Positions 17,307 to 25,126 of a stretch of DNA of 64,000 nucleotides are shown here, in pieces. The position numbers were made by a program, and so were the translations under genes. Location: assembly GCA_963668355.1 (NCBI GenBank), contig OY764265.1, positions 670,553 through 734,552 of the forward strand. The letters are read 5' to 3'. This DNA is from Bdellovibrionota bacterium. Lineage in GTDB: Bacteria; Bdellovibrionota_G; JALEGL01; DATDPG01. The notes beneath the pieces were generated by a model that saw nothing but the letters and a program-made list of their open reading frames with translations, was not told the origin of the DNA and ran no database searches. How positions within the stretch are numbered: the first letter of the stretch is position 1; the number at the start of each line of letters is the position of its first letter.

Positions 17307-17723
17307 ATGTCAAAAACTCGTGTCCTTTTTGTATGTACTGGAAATTCTTGCCGAAGTCAGATTGCAGAAGGCCTTCTCCGGCACCTGGCCCCAGAAAACA
17401 CCGAAGTCTTCAGTGCGGGAACCCACCCCATGTCACCAAACCCAAGAGCCATCGAAGCCATGAAAGAAATTGACGTGGACATCTCGAACCAAACCTCAAA
17501 CCACGTAAACGAGTATGCCTCCGAAACCTTCGATTGGGTCATTACGGTATGTGATTCGGCCAACCAACGCTGCCCCGTATTCACGGGAGCCAAGAATCGC
17601 CTCCATTGGAGCATTCCCGACCCCTTTGATGTGGATGGCCCACCACAAATGATCGCTCAGGCCTTTCGTGCCGTTCGAGAGGACCTAAAAACCCGCATCC
17701 AAAGCCTCATGGAACAGTTTTAG
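17307..17723 (+). CDS. arsC: Arsenate reductase, thioredoxin-coupled LMW-PTP type
   Basis: VLFVCTGNSCRSQIAEG P-loop plus VITVCDSANQRCPVF (the Cys82/Cys89-type pair). Confidence 0.85.
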   Translation: MSKTRVLFVCTGNSCRSQIAEGLLRHLAPENTEVFSAGTHPMSPNPRAIEAMKEIDVDISNQTSNHVNEYASETFDWVITVCDSANQRCPVFTGAKNRLHWSIPDPFDVDGPPQMIAQAFRAVREDLKTRIQSLMEQF

Positions 17724-17855
17724 GGCATTTCCGAGGCTTGCCGAATGAAAAAAAATGACGTATCACCCTGTTCCGCCAAAGCTACTCCGTAGCCAAGGCG
17801 CTTGGCTGGGTTTAAGGATTGAGCCTTACGACCCGCCCCTAAATCATTAAATCGT

Positions 17856-17948
17856 GGAGAGGTGACCGAGTGGCTGAAGGTGCTCGCCTGGAAAGCGGGT
17901 GATCGGTCAAAAGCTGATCCGCGGGTTCGAATCCCGCCCTCTCCGCCA
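17856..17948 (+). tRNA. tRNA-Ser (anticodon GGA), CCA encoded
   Basis: GGAGAGG acceptor pairs with CCTCTCC. Anticodon loop CTGGAAA, long variable arm (GTGATCGGTCAAAAGCTGATCC), T-arm GCGGGTTCGAATCCCGC, terminal CCA. Confidence 0.9.
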
Positions 17949-17957
17949 TACAAAAAA

Positions 17958-17982
17958 TGCCCGCCTTGCGCGGGTTTTTTTG
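17958..17982 (+). terminator. Intrinsic terminator after tRNA-Ser
   Basis: CCCGC-CTTGC-GCGGG hairpin followed by a T7 run. The flanking ccatacaaaaaa/ttttttgtatgg extends the pairing. Confidence 0.6.
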
Positions 17983-18138
17983 TATGGTTGAGCGGGTGCG
18001 GTGAGACCTGCGTGCCGTAGGCAGGGTTCGAACATGCCGATCTTTCCTAGGAAAGATCTTTACAAAATATCGGTGTCGAACCGGGAGCCCTTTGGGCGGT
18101 TCGACACACACCTCACATGTCTACGTGCGAGAGCACGT

Positions 18139-18158
18139 GAATCCCGCCCTCTCCGCCA
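18139..18158 (+). repeat. 20-bp direct repeat of the tRNA-Ser 3' end (att-like)
   Basis: gaatcccgccctctccgcca is identical to 17929-17948 and is followed by its own terminator-like hairpin. Confidence 0.8.
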
Positions 18159-18165
18159 CAAAAAT

Positions 18166-18194
18166 ACCCATGACGTAAGTCGTGGGTTTTTTTG
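18166..18194 (+). terminator. Second terminator-like hairpin after the duplicated tRNA 3' end
   Basis: acccatgac-gtaa-gtcgtgggt followed by a T7 run. Same architecture as 17958-17982. Confidence 0.5.
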
Positions 18195-18241
18195 TGGCGG
18201 GGCAGTTGGAACTTAGTTCGACTTTATGGGAAACGAAAATT

Positions 18242-18297
18242 GATTCGGGGGACACACGACTGAATCCGATTCAATTTTTTCTGTACCAGTCGTGCGT
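18242..18297 (-). repeat. Hairpin repeat family B, copy B1 (interrupted by IS110; the last 11 nt resume at 19487-19497)
   Basis: gattcgggggacacacgactgaatccgattcaattttttctgtaccagtcgtgcgt is the reverse complement of copy B2 up to the IS junction. Confidence 0.85.
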
Positions 18298-18515
18298 TGT
18301 ATGTGCGGGTATCCCTTCGAACGAAGCAGATGTAAAGGAGTTGGTAGGGATATTCCAGGGAGTTGTTGCAACAACTCCCTGGAAAGCCGGCTGGCGACCG
18401 ATCGTGTGTAGATCTTGAGGATCGCGGGGACCCAGGTACCAGTCTGGCCATCTCTTTACACTTGATTAGTTGAGAGGGCTTTACGCCCGCATACAATGCA
18501 AAGATTGGAGTCACT
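18298..18515 (+). ncRNA. Candidate bridge/seek RNA region in the IS110 left end
   Basis: 218 bp non-coding. Perfect 32-nt palindrome at 18353-18384. Short segments match the target flanks (18402-18409, 18421-18431, 18436-18444) and the IS termini (18339-18345, 18486-18496). Transcript ends unknown. Confidence 0.4.
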
Positions 18516-19481
18516 ATGCGAAACCAGCCAAGGAAGTACAAGCATTTTTTGGGGATTGATATGGGAAAGGATTTCTTCGAAGTCTTTGCTTTGGGTGATC
18601 CAAAGACCCATACATTTCAAAATAAACGCTCTGGATTTCAGACGTTCTTGAGAAAATACCGGCAGAAACTGCCCTCAGCCCTGATGACTGTAGAAGCTAC
18701 AGGGGGCTATGAGAAAGCCTTGCTCAAAGAGCTTGCCACTAGAGACTTGAAAGTACATCGGGCCAATCCAAGGAAAGTGAAGTTCTTTATTCGCTCCTTT
18801 GGCATTGAAGGCAAATCAGACACCACCGATGCACGTGCCTTAGCTCAATATGCTCTAGAACGACATCCTCACCTCGACCTCTTCCAAAAGCCCGATCTGA
18901 ATGTGGAAATCCTTTCCAAACTAGTGAAACGGCGCGCAGAACTGGTCGCCATTCAAACTCAGGAACGCAATCGCCTCAAAGGACCGGATCGGGAAATCCT
19001 CAAAGCAAGCGTCCAAAGAGTCTTGGCTTGTTTAAAAGAAACGATTGCCGAAATCGAAGCTCAAATCACAACTCATCTGCGCGAGAACGATCAGCTCCTA
19101 CAAAAGTATCGGGAAATTCAAACCATTCCAGGCGTCGGACCCAAAGTCGCCGCAGCTCTCTTGGCTGACCTCCCGGAACTTGGAACGATCTCCGGCAAGC
19201 AGATCGCTTCTCTCGCTGGAGTGGCTCCTCATCCCAATCAAAGTGGAAAACGAGAAGGCTACCGAAAGACAAGAGGTGGACGCGTCCAGATCAAGCCCAT
19301 CCTCTTTCTTGCTGCCCTCACAGCCTCTCGCAGCAAATCCCCGCTCGGCAACTTTTATCGAAATCTCCTCGCACAGGGCAAAAAACCCATTGTCGCTGCC
19401 GTCGCCCTCATGAGAAAAATCGTCGTTATCGCCAACGCCAAAATCAGGGACCTCTCACTTTCTCCTTGCTCTTCTACTTAG
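18516..19481 (+). CDS. IS110-family transposase/recombinase
   Basis: FLGIDMGKDFFEV..VEATGGYEKAL..KSDTTDARALA (DEDD RuvC-like N-domain) and IQTIPGVGPKVAAALLADLPELG..IASLAGVAPHPNQSGK (Transposase_20-like C-domain). GGAG sits 5 nt upstream of the ATG. Confidence 0.9.
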   Translation: MRNQPRKYKHFLGIDMGKDFFEVFALGDPKTHTFQNKRSGFQTFLRKYRQKLPSALMTVEATGGYEKALLKELATRDLKVHRANPRKVKFFIRSFGIEGKSDTTDARALAQYALERHPHLDLFQKPDLNVEILSKLVKRRAELVAIQTQERNRLKGPDREILKASVQRVLACLKETIAEIEAQITTHLRENDQLLQKYREIQTIPGVGPKVAAALLADLPELGTISGKQIASLAGVAPHPNQSGKREGYRKTRGGRVQIKPILFLAALTASRSKSPLGNFYRNLLAQGKKPIVAAVALMRKIVVIANAKIRDLSLSPCSST

Positions 19482-19497
19482 TTGGTCCCCCGATTTT

Positions 19498-19804
19498 TTT
19501 TTGGAATTTTTCGGCGCCCTGCCCCCGCCCAATTTATTCACCTCCTACTCCTGACAAACCCCTAAAAACGCTGGGTCTGGGCCCGTTTGCGCACACCCGT
19601 GCGCCCTTTTCATCAAGATTAAGAATTTTTGCCCTGTATCACCGACCCGCCCAGGTGTCCTCTTCATACCTGGCATCCATCAGATACGCCTCATCCCCTA
19701 TTTCCTCGTCGGCTTCGAACGCCTCACCCTGAACACCTTCTAGCTGTTTCATCCAACCTGGAGGCCCTGTAGCCCGCTCCTCACTCGTTGCCTGTCCCAA
19801 ATGG
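19498..19804 (+). repeat. Dispersed repeat family A, copy A1 (lacks the left ~90 bp)
   Basis: Near-identical to 26815-27121 and 29926-30232. The left boundary is ambiguous because the B-hairpin end cccccgatttt resembles the internal A motif cccccatttt. Confidence 0.85.
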
Positions 19805-24943: not shown

Positions 24944-25014
24944 CCTGAAAATCGGGGGACGCACGACTGGTACAGAAAAAATTGAATCGGATTCAGTCGT
25001 GTGTCCCCCGAATC
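24944..25014 (+). repeat. Hairpin repeat family B, copy B2 (full length, reference copy)
   Basis: Left arm cgggggacgcacgactg (24953-69) and right arm cagtcgtgtgtcccccg (24994-25010) are imperfect inverted repeats around an A-rich loop. Confidence 0.85.
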
Positions 25015-25126
25015 CCCACAAAATCGTCGCTTCATTTTTTCTCGTTGGGCTTTCTTATCCACGAAACCCGTGACACCTTGTTTGAACTCTTAACTATGGG
25101 TAGCGCCCCGCCCTCTCGACGAGTGC

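What the first reader, a model, noticed from the sequence alone, without database searches (positions are those of the whole stretch)
18298..18515. Left end of the IS110 element looks like a bridge/seek RNA with target-like and donor-like guide segments
IS110-family recombinases are known to use an IS-encoded structured RNA whose loops pair with the target and with the IS ends. The 218-bp LE is non-coding and highly structured, with a perfect 32-nt palindrome at 18353-18384 and a small GATC hairpin at 18411-18424.

Target-like segments:
- tcgtgtgt (18402-09) matches the left target flank plus core, tcgtgcGT (18290-97), at 7/8. It matches the other hairpin arm at 8/8.
- atcgcggggac (18421-31) is the reverse complement of GTcccccgat (core plus right flank) with one bulged C.
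- gtaccagtc (18436-44) is identical to 18283-91.

Donor-like segments:
- agttggt (18339-45) is identical to the IS right terminus (19480-86).
- cccgcatacaa (18486-96) is complementary to the junction and left terminus ttgtatg..cggg (18297-18309).

Left-side matches are same-sense and right-side matches are antisense, as expected for guides that pair with opposite strands. The order of the segments differs from the IS621 layout as I remember it, so this may be a variant architecture.
Basis: partly seen in the sequence, partly recalled or inferred. Interest (0 to 1): 0.75.

Follow-up and report, generated by a model that had tools for sequence, protein, structure and literature searches.

The report
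Ordinary IS110 bridge RNA, guides remapped

Summary
The element at 18298-19486 is an intact IS110-group insertion sequence. It has a DEDD/Ser recombinase at 18516-19481, a GT core and an exact empty-site paralogue in the same window.

Its 218-nt left end has the published bridge-RNA layout, in this order:
- a 5' stem-loop (18353-84);
- a target-binding loop, with LTG UCGUGUGU at 18402-09 and RTG CGGGGAC at 18425-31;
- a donor-binding loop, with LDG UUAGUUG at 18466-72 and RDG CAUACAAU at 18490-97.

I collected about 80 related loci from genomes and metagenomes. A covariance model built on this fold hits just upstream of the recombinase gene in most of them (seed rows included). All four guides covary with the flanks or termini of their own element:
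- LTG: 34 distinct guides, 6.85/8 identity against 3.47/8 for mismatched pairs, 0 of 10,000 permutations as good.
- RTG: 0 of 10,000.
- LDG: 23 of 10,000.
- RDG: 1 of 10,000.

Its left donor guide (agttggt, 18339-45) and the 9-mer at 18436-44 are not conserved in close relatives and are best read as chance. The "different order" claim therefore falls: the order is canonical.

Expression and activity are untested. This is a new member of a known kind, of modest interest.

The parts
18280..18297 (+). Left target flank plus GT core (18296-97): tctgtaccagtcgtgc-GT. It is one arm of a REP-like palindromic repeat.
   Evidence: Left flank and right flank joined are 29/29 identical to the uninterrupted paralogue at 24948-24976 (- strand). 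The repeat has 8 copies in the window against 0.03 expected.
18298..19486 (+). The IS110-group element, 1189 bp counted with one copy of the GT core (the 3' copy is 19485-86).
   Evidence: Boundaries come from the empty-site paralogue and from relatives that share the termini TGTATG... and ...TTAGTTGGT. It is a single copy in the window.
18298..18352 (+). 5' leader of the LE. The first 6 nt, TGTATG, are the right-donor (RD) sequence; the rest is not conserved.
   Evidence: Only TGTATGT is shared with L002, L008 and L009. RD covaries with the RDG across relatives.
18353..18384 (+). 5' stem-loop of the bridge RNA (the perfect 32-nt palindrome).
   Evidence: Arms are 100% complementary. Most relatives I read have a near-perfect hairpin of different sequence at this position; L012 lacks an obvious one. 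This corresponds to the '5' stem-loop' of the IS621 consensus.
18386..18449 (+). Target-binding stem-loop. Basal helices are 18389-94/18439-44 and 18397-99/18435-37, and the apical GAUC hairpin is 18411-14/18420-23.
   Evidence: Helices are supported by compensatory changes: 91% of cells paired, 14 of 18 pairs with double changes, 0 of 500 shuffles as good. The centroid fold leaves both guide strands unpaired.
18402..18409 (+). Left target guide (LTG) UCGUGUGU, same sense as LT plus core tcgtgcGT. The one difference gives an rU-dG wobble with the bottom strand.
   Evidence: This column block matches each element's own left flank at 6.85/8, against 3.47/8 for other elements' flanks. There are 34 distinct guides, and 0 of 10,000 permutations do as well.
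18425..18431 (+). Right target guide (RTG) CGGGGAC, the reverse complement of GTCCCCG. The right flank here is GTCCCCC, so 6 nt pair contiguously including the core. The next two nt, CC (18432-33), occupy the handshake-guide position.
   Evidence: The contiguous match from the core averages 5.6 nt with the element's own flank and 2.9 nt with other elements' flanks. There are 18 distinct guides, and 0 of 10,000 permutations do as well. In L001, with the same guide, the flank GTCCCCG matches 7/7.
18460..18504 (+). Donor-binding stem-loop. The basal helix is 18461-63/18501-03, the apical hairpin is GGGC 18476-79 / GCCC 18485-88, and the loop is uuuac.
   Evidence: The apical helix is in the consensus fold. 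The 4-bp basal helix covaries at a fixed offset: GUUU/AAAC, GCUU/AAGC, ACUU/AAGU, ACUC/GAGU. The window forms 3 of the 4 pairs.
18466..18472 (+). Left donor guide (LDG) UUAGUUG, same sense as the last 7 nt of the RE before the core (19478-84).
   Evidence: With the RE end located by the RTG alone, 6 distinct LDG variants match their own RE end at 41/42 positions. 23 of 10,000 permutations do as well.
18490..18497 (+). Right donor guide (RDG) CAUACAAU, the reverse complement of core plus RD, GT-TGTATG, with a U-G wobble at the first core base. The next two nt, GC (18498-99), occupy the handshake position and are complementary to target positions 6-7 (GC).
   Evidence: With the LE start located by the LTG alone, 9 distinct RDG variants match at 49/54 positions, and 1 of 10,000 permutations does as well.
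18516..19481 (+). Recombinase gene (321 aa). The stop codon TAG (19479-81) lies inside the left-donor sequence.
   Evidence: Pfam PF01548 (1.6e-19) and PF02371 (6.6e-18). NCBIfam NF033542, 'IS110 family RNA-guided transposase', scores 192.7 bits against a cut-off of 140. It is 30% identical to the IS621 recombinase (E 7e-36), with D15, E60, D102, D105 and S243 aligned to the IS621 catalytic residues.
19478..19486 (+). Right end: LD TTAGTTG plus GT core. The RE runs only 5 nt past the stop codon.
19487..19500 (+). Right target flank, cccccgattttttt.
18245..18262 (-). Unoccupied, perfectly matching target copy (CAGTCGTGTGTCCCCCGA) in inverted orientation. It is the other arm of the same palindromic unit.
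   Evidence: Zero mismatches; inverted repeats I5 and I13.

Best explanation
The left end (18298-18515) encodes a canonical IS110-group bridge RNA that works with the recombinase encoded just downstream.

Layout (shown):
- a 5' stem-loop;
- a target-binding stem-loop whose internal loop carries the LTG (UCGUGUGU) and RTG (CGGGGAC);
- a donor-binding stem-loop whose internal loop carries the LDG (UUAGUUG) and RDG (CAUACAAU).

Mechanism (inferred by analogy with IS621):
[quoted passage not shown] - The LDG and RDG do the same on the RE-LE junction of the excised circle (...TTAGTTG-GT-TGTATG...).
- The recombinase tetramer then exchanges strands at the GT core, inserting the element into one arm of a REP-like palindromic repeat (consensus CAGTCGTG[T/C]GT|CCCCCGA).

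What is shown: the fold and its covariation, the covariation of all four guides with flanks and termini, the IS boundaries, and the intact catalytic residues.
What is inferred: that the RNA is made, that the protein binds it, and that recombination follows the IS621 pathway.
For: - Recombinase: Pfam DEDD_Tnp_IS110 plus Transposase_20, and NCBIfam 'IS110 family RNA-guided transposase' above its cut-off. It is 30% identical to IS621 over its full length, with the catalytic D/E/D/D/S residues aligned.
- Boundaries and core: an exact 29/29 empty-site paralogue in the same window, and an empty site next to a relative (L003).
- Fold: consensus over 28 diverse relatives has 91.4% of cells paired, 14 of 18 pairs with compensatory changes, 0 of 500 shuffles as good, and collapses when the partners are slid.
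- Covariance model R1 built on that fold: hits the LE just upstream of the recombinase gene in most of the ~80 independently fetched loci. Matches outside the seed include L039, L061, L040, L026, L064, L065, L050-53, L024, L030 and L068. It hits the window once (E 4e-19).
- Guide covariation:
  - LTG 6.85/8 against 3.47/8, 34 guides, 0 of 10,000 permutations.
  - RTG 5.6 against 2.9 nt, 0 of 10,000.
  - LDG 41/42, 23 of 10,000.
  - RDG 49/54, 1 of 10,000.
- Window-specific pairing: LTG 7 Watson-Crick pairs plus 1 G-U out of 8; RTG 6 contiguous; LDG 7/7; RDG 7 Watson-Crick pairs plus 1 G-U out of 8.
- Agreement with publication: the layout, strand logic and guide lengths match IS621, including the variable first loop and the conserved second loop (PMC11208160).
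- Handshake positions: these behave as published for many relatives. The TBL handshake 'CA' is complementary to donor 'TG' in most, and the window's DBL handshake GC is complementary to target GC (PMC11208158).
Against: - There is no expression or activity data.
- No convincing sigma-70-type promoter spans the RE-LE junction in the window element. Most AT-core relatives have TTGAT|T, a 17-nt spacer, then TAnnnT at that place.
- Rfam 15 gave no bridge-RNA match, and my clade model does not reach the IS621 bridge RNA. Kinship with the experimentally proven RNA therefore rests on architecture and on the protein, not on RNA sequence similarity.
- The LDG does not extend into the core here.
- The DBL basal helix has only 3 of 4 pairs in the window.
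- The full-LE MFE fold pairs the RDG with the LE 5' end instead of leaving it free.
- Only one copy is seen in the 64-kb window, so recent activity is not shown.
Confidence: 0.9

Rival explanations
1. The donor guides are split, with the LDG (agttggt, 18339-45) upstream of the target loop and the RDG at the far 3' end, so the segment order differs from IS621.
For: agttggt is identical to the last 7 nt of the element including the core. A specific 7-mer is expected only about 0.01 times in 218 nt (my estimate).
Against: - L002, L008 and L009 have the same RE terminus TTAGTTGGT and the same DBL, but read AGATTAAGAG or unrelated sequence at this place.
- The segment lies outside the conserved, covarying part of the RNA.
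- A 7-nt match or longer to the RE end occurs in 7% of shuffles.
- A different 7-mer at the canonical position (18466-72) covaries with RE ends through 6 variants.
Confidence: 0.03
2. The LE is only a structured 5' UTR or promoter region for the transposase gene. On this view the similarity to the flanks is chance, or sequence picked up from the REP target, and there is no guide function.
For: - Short matches are common by chance in a single sequence.
- A sigma-70-like site, TTGAGA-16-TACAAT, overlaps the donor loop at 18470-97.
- The 3' part of the RNA overlaps the ribosome-binding site, and in relatives it pairs with the linker, so some regulatory role is plausible alongside guiding.
Against: Chance or capture cannot explain why four separate segments change in step with each element's own flanks and termini across dozens of unrelated targets. 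It also cannot explain why they sit in internal loops of a fold kept by compensatory changes. The protein family has a demonstrated need for such an RNA (PMC11208160).
Confidence: 0.04
3. The element is an IS1111-type member whose guide (seekRNA) lies in the right end, and the LE structure is unrelated to guiding.
For: The IS110 family contains both layouts (PMC11208160). Some plasmid relatives, at about 36% identity, are annotated only as 'IS110 family transposase'.
Against: The RE is only 5 nt beyond the stop codon, so there is no room for an RNA gene there. The LE is 218 nt and carries all four guides.
Confidence: 0.01

Closest known systems
IS621 bridge RNA and recombinase (E. coli; Durrant et al. 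2024, PMC11208160; Hiraizumi et al. 2024, PMC11208158)
   Same: - The RNA is encoded in a long LE directly upstream of a DEDD/Ser recombinase, and the RE is very short.
- The layout is a 5' stem-loop, then a variable target loop, then a conserved donor loop.
[quoted passage not shown] The 3' side is antisense to the core plus the right half-site (6-8 nt).
- There is a 2-nt core.
- The LE starts TGTAT.
- The target is a REP-like repeat.
- One tolerated guide/target difference is a wobble pair, like IS621's ATCGGGCCT guide against its common ATCAGGCCT target.
- Two-nucleotide handshake positions follow the RTG and RDG.
   Different: - The recombinase is only 30% identical.
- There is no detectable RNA sequence similarity: model R1 does not hit IS621.
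- The core is GT, not CT; most relatives of this clade use AT.
- The LDG stops before the core.
- The RDG is contiguous (8 nt), not discontiguous.
- No junction promoter is recognisable in the window copy.
ISPpu10 (Pseudomonas putida; REP-targeting IS110-group element; bioRxiv 10.64898/2026.03.19.712850)
   Same: It inserts into REP sequences that occur as convergent or palindromic pairs. The left half-site is part of an intramolecular stem (here 18252-62 pairs with 18287-97).
   Different: The core is CT and the target sequence is different. I did not compare its protein or RNA with this element. Whether the target hairpin matters here is untested.
IS1111-group seekRNA elements (IS1111, IS4321/IS5075)
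   Same: Same recombinase superfamily, and the same principle of guiding by an RNA encoded in the IS.
   Different: Their guide RNA lies in a long RE and they have long subterminal inverted repeats. This element has a 5-nt RE and an LE-encoded RNA.

Membership tests
IS110-group bridge RNA system (IS621 type) | Recombinase with an N-terminal DEDD RuvC-like domain (PF01548), a C-terminal Tnp domain with a catalytic Ser (PF02371), and the catalytic residues present. | tested here: met
   D15, E60, D102, D105 and S243 are invariant in 39 homologues and align with IS621 D11, E60, D102, D105 and S241.
IS110-group bridge RNA system (IS621 type) | Long non-coding LE upstream of the gene on the same strand, and a very short RE. 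| tested here: met
   The LE is 218 nt and the RE is 5 nt past the stop codon.
IS110-group bridge RNA system (IS621 type) | [quoted passage not shown] The first loop is variable and the second conserved. | tested here: met
   Consensus fold with compensatory changes; centroid fold of 18350-18515; conservation pattern in A5 and A6; published description.
IS110-group bridge RNA system (IS621 type) | First loop: the 5' strand is same-sense to the left target plus core, and the 3' strand is antisense to the core plus right target. Both covary with insertion sites. | tested here: met
   (0 of 10,000 permutations for each). In the window the LTG matches 7/8 plus a wobble and the RTG matches 6 contiguous nt.
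IS110-group bridge RNA system (IS621 type) | Second loop: the 5' strand is same-sense to the RE end and the 3' strand is antisense to the core plus LE start. Both covary with the IS termini. | tested here: met
   LDG 41/42 and RDG 49/54. In the window the LDG matches 7/7 without the core, and the RDG matches 8/8 with one G-U.
IS110-group bridge RNA system (IS621 type) | Handshake guides: the 2 nt 3' of the RTG pair with donor positions 6-7, and the 2 nt 3' of the RDG pair with target positions 6-7. | tested here: inconclusive
   Across the 42 tabulated relatives:
- the TBL handshake is CA in most, complementary to donor TG;
- DBL handshake N2 pairs with target position 6 in 29 of 42;
- DBL handshake N1 pairs with target position 7 in 20 of 42.
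In the window, DBL GC against target GC gives 2/2, and TBL CC against donor TG gives 1/2.
IS110-group bridge RNA system (IS621 type) | Match to a curated or published covariance model of the bridge RNA. | not testable with these tools
   Rfam 15 returned no bridge-RNA match at E up to 10. The published models are not available here. My own clade model does not reach IS621.
IS110-group bridge RNA system (IS621 type) | Promoter reconstituted across the RE-core-LE junction of the circle, driving the RNA. | tested here: inconclusive
   Most AT-core relatives have TTGAT|T, a 17-nt spacer, then TAnnnT. The best junction site in the window scores only 6/12.
IS110-group bridge RNA system (IS621 type) | The RNA is expressed, is bound by the recombinase and is required for recombination, and the loops can be reprogrammed. 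| not testable with these tools
   There is no transcriptome or biochemistry for this organism.
IS1111-group seekRNA system | Guide RNA encoded in a long RE, a short LE, and long subterminal inverted repeats. | tested here: not met
   The RE is 5 nt and the LE is 218 nt.

The most novel reading that the evidence does not exclude
In this copy the start of the LE (18297-18310, UUGUAUGUGCGGG) is complementary not only to the RDG but also to the 3' strand of the donor-loop hairpin (CCCGCAUACAA, 18486-96). The full-LE MFE fold closes on this long-range helix.

It could act as a cis 'donor mimic'. Transcripts that read in from outside or start at the very end of the LE (integrated state) would then fold into an inactive RNA with the donor loop occluded. 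Only transcripts that start further inside the LE would give an active bridge RNA.

The evidence does not exclude this. But the extension beyond the 6-8 nt that any such element must have is absent in L002, L008 and L009.
Probability: 0.06. Interest if true: 0.5.

Novelty: new member of a known kind. Interest (0 to 1): 0.25.

Why it matters
It adds a well-mapped bridge-RNA element from an uncultured-type lineage. It has a GT core and a defined REP-like target. It comes with about 35 related natural guide/target pairs that share one RNA scaffold.

Such natural series help define which loop positions are programmable in a scaffold other than IS621 or IS622. For genome annotation, the 218-nt 'non-coding' LE should be annotated as an ncRNA gene.

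It does not change the understanding of the mechanism.

Tried and rejected
- Rfam 15 scan of 17700-19800 at E up to 10: no bridge-RNA family matched, only the neighbouring tRNA-Ser and noise.
- Clade covariance model R1 against the IS621 locus (L089): no hit at E up to 1, so no direct RNA-level link to the proven RNA.
- Search for other copies of the element in the window: none.
- Junction-promoter scan: clear in AT-core relatives, not in the window or its three GT-core relatives. In-LE scan: the only sigma-70-like site overlaps the donor loop.
- Protein search of plasmids for a named ISfinder relative: only generic 'IS110 family transposase' at 38% identity or less.
- Linker pairing with the 5' leader or the 3' tail, by duplex energies: the element's own partners are only modestly better than those of other elements (-10.9 against -8.7, and -12.2 against -10.7 kcal/mol). 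I rely only on the 4-bp covarying basal helix.
- The 9-mer gtaccagtc as an extra guide: rejected. It is the 3' strand of the target-loop basal helix, it covaries with its 5' partner, and it does not track the flank in L002 or L009. Its chance probability of about 1% is left as an unexplained coincidence.

Full report
**What is there**

The window holds one ORF of 321 aa at 18516-19481 (+). It carries Pfam DEDD_Tnp_IS110 and Transposase_20. It scores 192.7 bits against NCBIfam NF033542, 'IS110 family RNA-guided transposase', whose cut-off is 140.

It is 30% identical to the IS621 recombinase over its whole length (E 7e-36). I fetched the IS621 locus from E. coli as L089. The residues that align with IS621 D11, E60, D102, D105 and S241 are D15, E60, D102, D105 and S243. 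They are invariant in 39 homologues (catalytic roles from PMC11208158).

**Boundaries**

The left junction reads tcgtgc-GT|TGTATG and the right junction reads TTAGTTG-GT|cccccg. The left flank (18280-97) joined to the right flank (19487-97) is 29/29 identical to an uninterrupted sequence at 24948-24976 on the minus strand. So the element is 18298-19486 counted with one GT core.

The stop codon lies inside the last 9 nt, so the RE is 5 nt past the stop and the LE is 218 nt.

The target belongs to a REP-like repeat, CAGTCGTG[T/C]GTCCCCCGA. It has 8 copies in this 64-kb window against 0.03 expected, often as inverted pairs. A perfect unoccupied copy lies 35 nt upstream in the opposite orientation (18245-62).

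**Checking the observation**

The LE folds far better than shuffles (z = -4.3).

From one sequence alone, however, the short matches prove little. In 2,000 dinucleotide shuffles, 61% gave at least one exact match of 7 nt or more to a flank or terminus. The 7-nt match to the RE end recurs in 7% of shuffles. Only the 9-mer is rare, at about 1%. The question had to be settled with relatives.

**Relatives**

The protein has one 85% relative (L001, a short contig) and many at 58% identity or less. I fetched loci for P0002, P0003 and P0004 and 80 further loci from GTDB genomes.

In the closest set (L001, L002-L008, L009) the LE is conserved from the palindromic hairpin to the start codon. The first ~55 nt, apart from TGTATGT, are not conserved. 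These elements share the window's termini and insert into much the same site...GTCGTGTGT|CCCC(C/G)G.... Empty copies of that site lie next to L003 and L009.

More distant relatives keep the same scaffold but carry different loop sequences and different flanks.

**Structure**

RNAalifold on 28 diverse sequences gives two stem-loops with internal loops. A hand-refined 18-pair structure has 91.4% of cells paired, and 14 of the 18 pairs show compensatory double changes. None of 500 shuffles reaches that, and the signal collapses when the 3' partners are slid by 1-3 columns.

Upstream of these, most relatives I read have a near-perfect hairpin of unrelated sequence; L012 lacks an obvious one. In the window this hairpin is the 32-nt palindrome.

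A 4-bp helix closes the second loop and covaries at a fixed offset: GUUU/AAAC, GCUU/AAGC, ACUU/AAGU, ACUC/GAGU.

A covariance model of the two loops (R1) hits just upstream of the recombinase gene in most of the fetched loci. Many of these were not in the seed. It hits the window once, at 18378-18500 (E 4e-19).

The centroid fold of 18350-18515 shows the 5' hairpin, the first stem-loop with both guide strands unpaired, and the GGGC/GCCC hairpin. [quoted passage not shown]

**Guides**

[quoted passage not shown] I read the homologous alignment columns in every relative.

| Guide | How the boundary was located | Own element | Other elements / permutation |
|---|---|---|---|
| LTG (8 nt) | LE start located by RD | 6.85/8 identical to own left flank | 3.47/8; 34 distinct guides; 0 of 10,000 permutations |
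| RTG | RE end located by LDG | 5.6 nt contiguous from the core | 2.9 nt; 18 distinct guides; 0 of 10,000 |
| LDG | RE end located by RTG alone | 41/42 over 6 variants (TTAGTTG, ATAGTTG, ATAGTTC, TGAGTTG, AGAGTTG, TGACTTG); ATGGTTG (L013) also matched its RE end | 23 of 10,000 |
| RDG | LE start located by LTG alone | 49/54 over 9 variants | 1 of 10,000 |

In the window:
- LTG UCGUGUGU (18402-09) against tcgtgcGT is 7/8, and the odd position is an rU-dG wobble with the bottom strand.
- RTG CGGGGAC (18425-31) pairs with GTCCCC.
- LDG UUAGUUG (18466-72) equals 19478-84.
- RDG CAUACAAU (18490-97) pairs with GT+TGTATG, with one U-G.

**Handshake positions**

In IS621 the two nucleotides after the RTG and after the RDG pair with the other DNA after strand exchange (PMC11208158).
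- In most relatives the two nt after the RTG are CA, complementary to donor TG.
- In 29 of 42 relatives the second nt after the RDG is complementary to target position 6.
- In the window the two nt after the RDG are GC, complementary to positions 6-7 (GC) of the arm it actually occupies.

This last point is suggestive, but it is a single case.

Right:
- the LE encodes a bridge RNA;
- tcgtgtgt is the LTG, cggggac is the RTG and catacaa is the RDG;
- the strand logic.

Wrong:
- agttggt (18339-45) as the LDG. It lies in the non-conserved leader, and L002, L008 and L009 lack it despite having the same RE terminus.
- gtaccagtc (18436-44) as a guide. It is the 3' strand of the first loop's basal helix (GGU-AC-CAGUC pairing with GGCUGG-CG-ACC). 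Its variable part changes with its 5' partner and not with the flank.
- the claim of a different segment order. That came only from the misplaced LDG; the true order is canonical.

The MFE of the whole LE does pair the RDG with the LE 5' end. That is expected for any transcript that contains the RD sequence, although here the pairing is longer than it needs to be.

**Open points**

Expression is unproven. Most AT-core relatives reconstitute a -35-like TTGAT|T across the junction, 17 nt upstream of a TAnnnT hexamer. This mirrors the junction promoter of IS621. The window and its three GT-core relatives show nothing convincing there. The only sigma-70-like site in the LE overlaps the donor loop (TTGAGA-16-TACAAT, 18470-97).

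Rfam has no matching family, and my model does not reach IS621. Membership therefore rests on the protein, the architecture and the guide logic, not on RNA sequence similarity.

**Verdict**

This is a typical IS110-group bridge RNA, a new member of a known kind, with a GT core and a REP-like target. Interest is modest.

Noticed in passing
window 17856-17948 and 18139-18159: tRNA-Ser(GGA) is followed about 190 nt downstream by a 21-nt direct repeat of its 3' end (gaatcccgccctctccgcca). Each copy is followed by a terminator-like hairpin. This looks like an att-site remnant of an integrated element, or a small tRNA-end duplication.
   Followed up: no
window 18245-18262, 24952-25011, 25326-43, 25761-78, 29735-52, 32524-41, 33471-88: A REP-like repeat, CAGTCGTG[T/C]GTCCCCCGA, occurs 8 times in 64 kb, partly as inverted pairs about 24 nt apart. 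The pair at 24948-25015 is the same ~66-bp unit as the IS-occupied one but flipped. The IS sits in the GTGCGT arm.
   Followed up: partly
window 18470-18497: A sigma-70-like site, TTGAGA-16-TACAAT (10/12), overlaps the LDG and RDG of the donor loop. It is well placed to drive the recombinase mRNA from the integrated copy. The spacing is not conserved in distant relatives.
   Followed up: partly
window 18293-18311 versus 18482-18500: A 19-nt, 79% complementary long-range inverted repeat joins the LE start to the RDG plus the 3' strand of the hairpin. It is longer than the 6-8 nt that the guide logic requires and is absent in L002, L008 and L009.
   Followed up: partly
L002 and L003 (JGI Ga0558119_00025, about 656.8-663.0 kb): Two inverted copies of the 57%-identical relative flank a Y1_Tnp (RAYT-type, PF01797) gene. 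This fits insertion into the REPs that border RAYT genes, and the arrangement resembles a composite transposon.
   Followed up: no
L013, L016, L020, L044, L061 and other AT-core relatives: linker between the two loops, and the region before the start codon: The linker CUCUCGA(U/A)A can pair with a UCGAGAG(G) stretch that overlaps the Shine-Dalgarno region, and alternatively with AAGAGAG upstream of the 5' hairpin. This may couple bridge-RNA folding to recombinase translation. The duplex-energy excess over mismatched partners is small.
   Followed up: partly
RE-LE junctions reconstructed from L016, L029, L043, L045, L061, L065 and others: A -35-like TTGAT|T hexamer is formed only when RE, the AT core and LE are joined, and lies 17 nt from a TAnnnT hexamer in the LE. 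This is a conserved circle-junction promoter in the AT-core relatives.
   Followed up: partly
L012 559-685 (- strand): A second, divergent bridge-RNA-like match (E 1e-9) lies back to back with the main element of that contig, with different guides (LDG GAACAGUUG). It is probably another IS110-group element.
   Followed up: no
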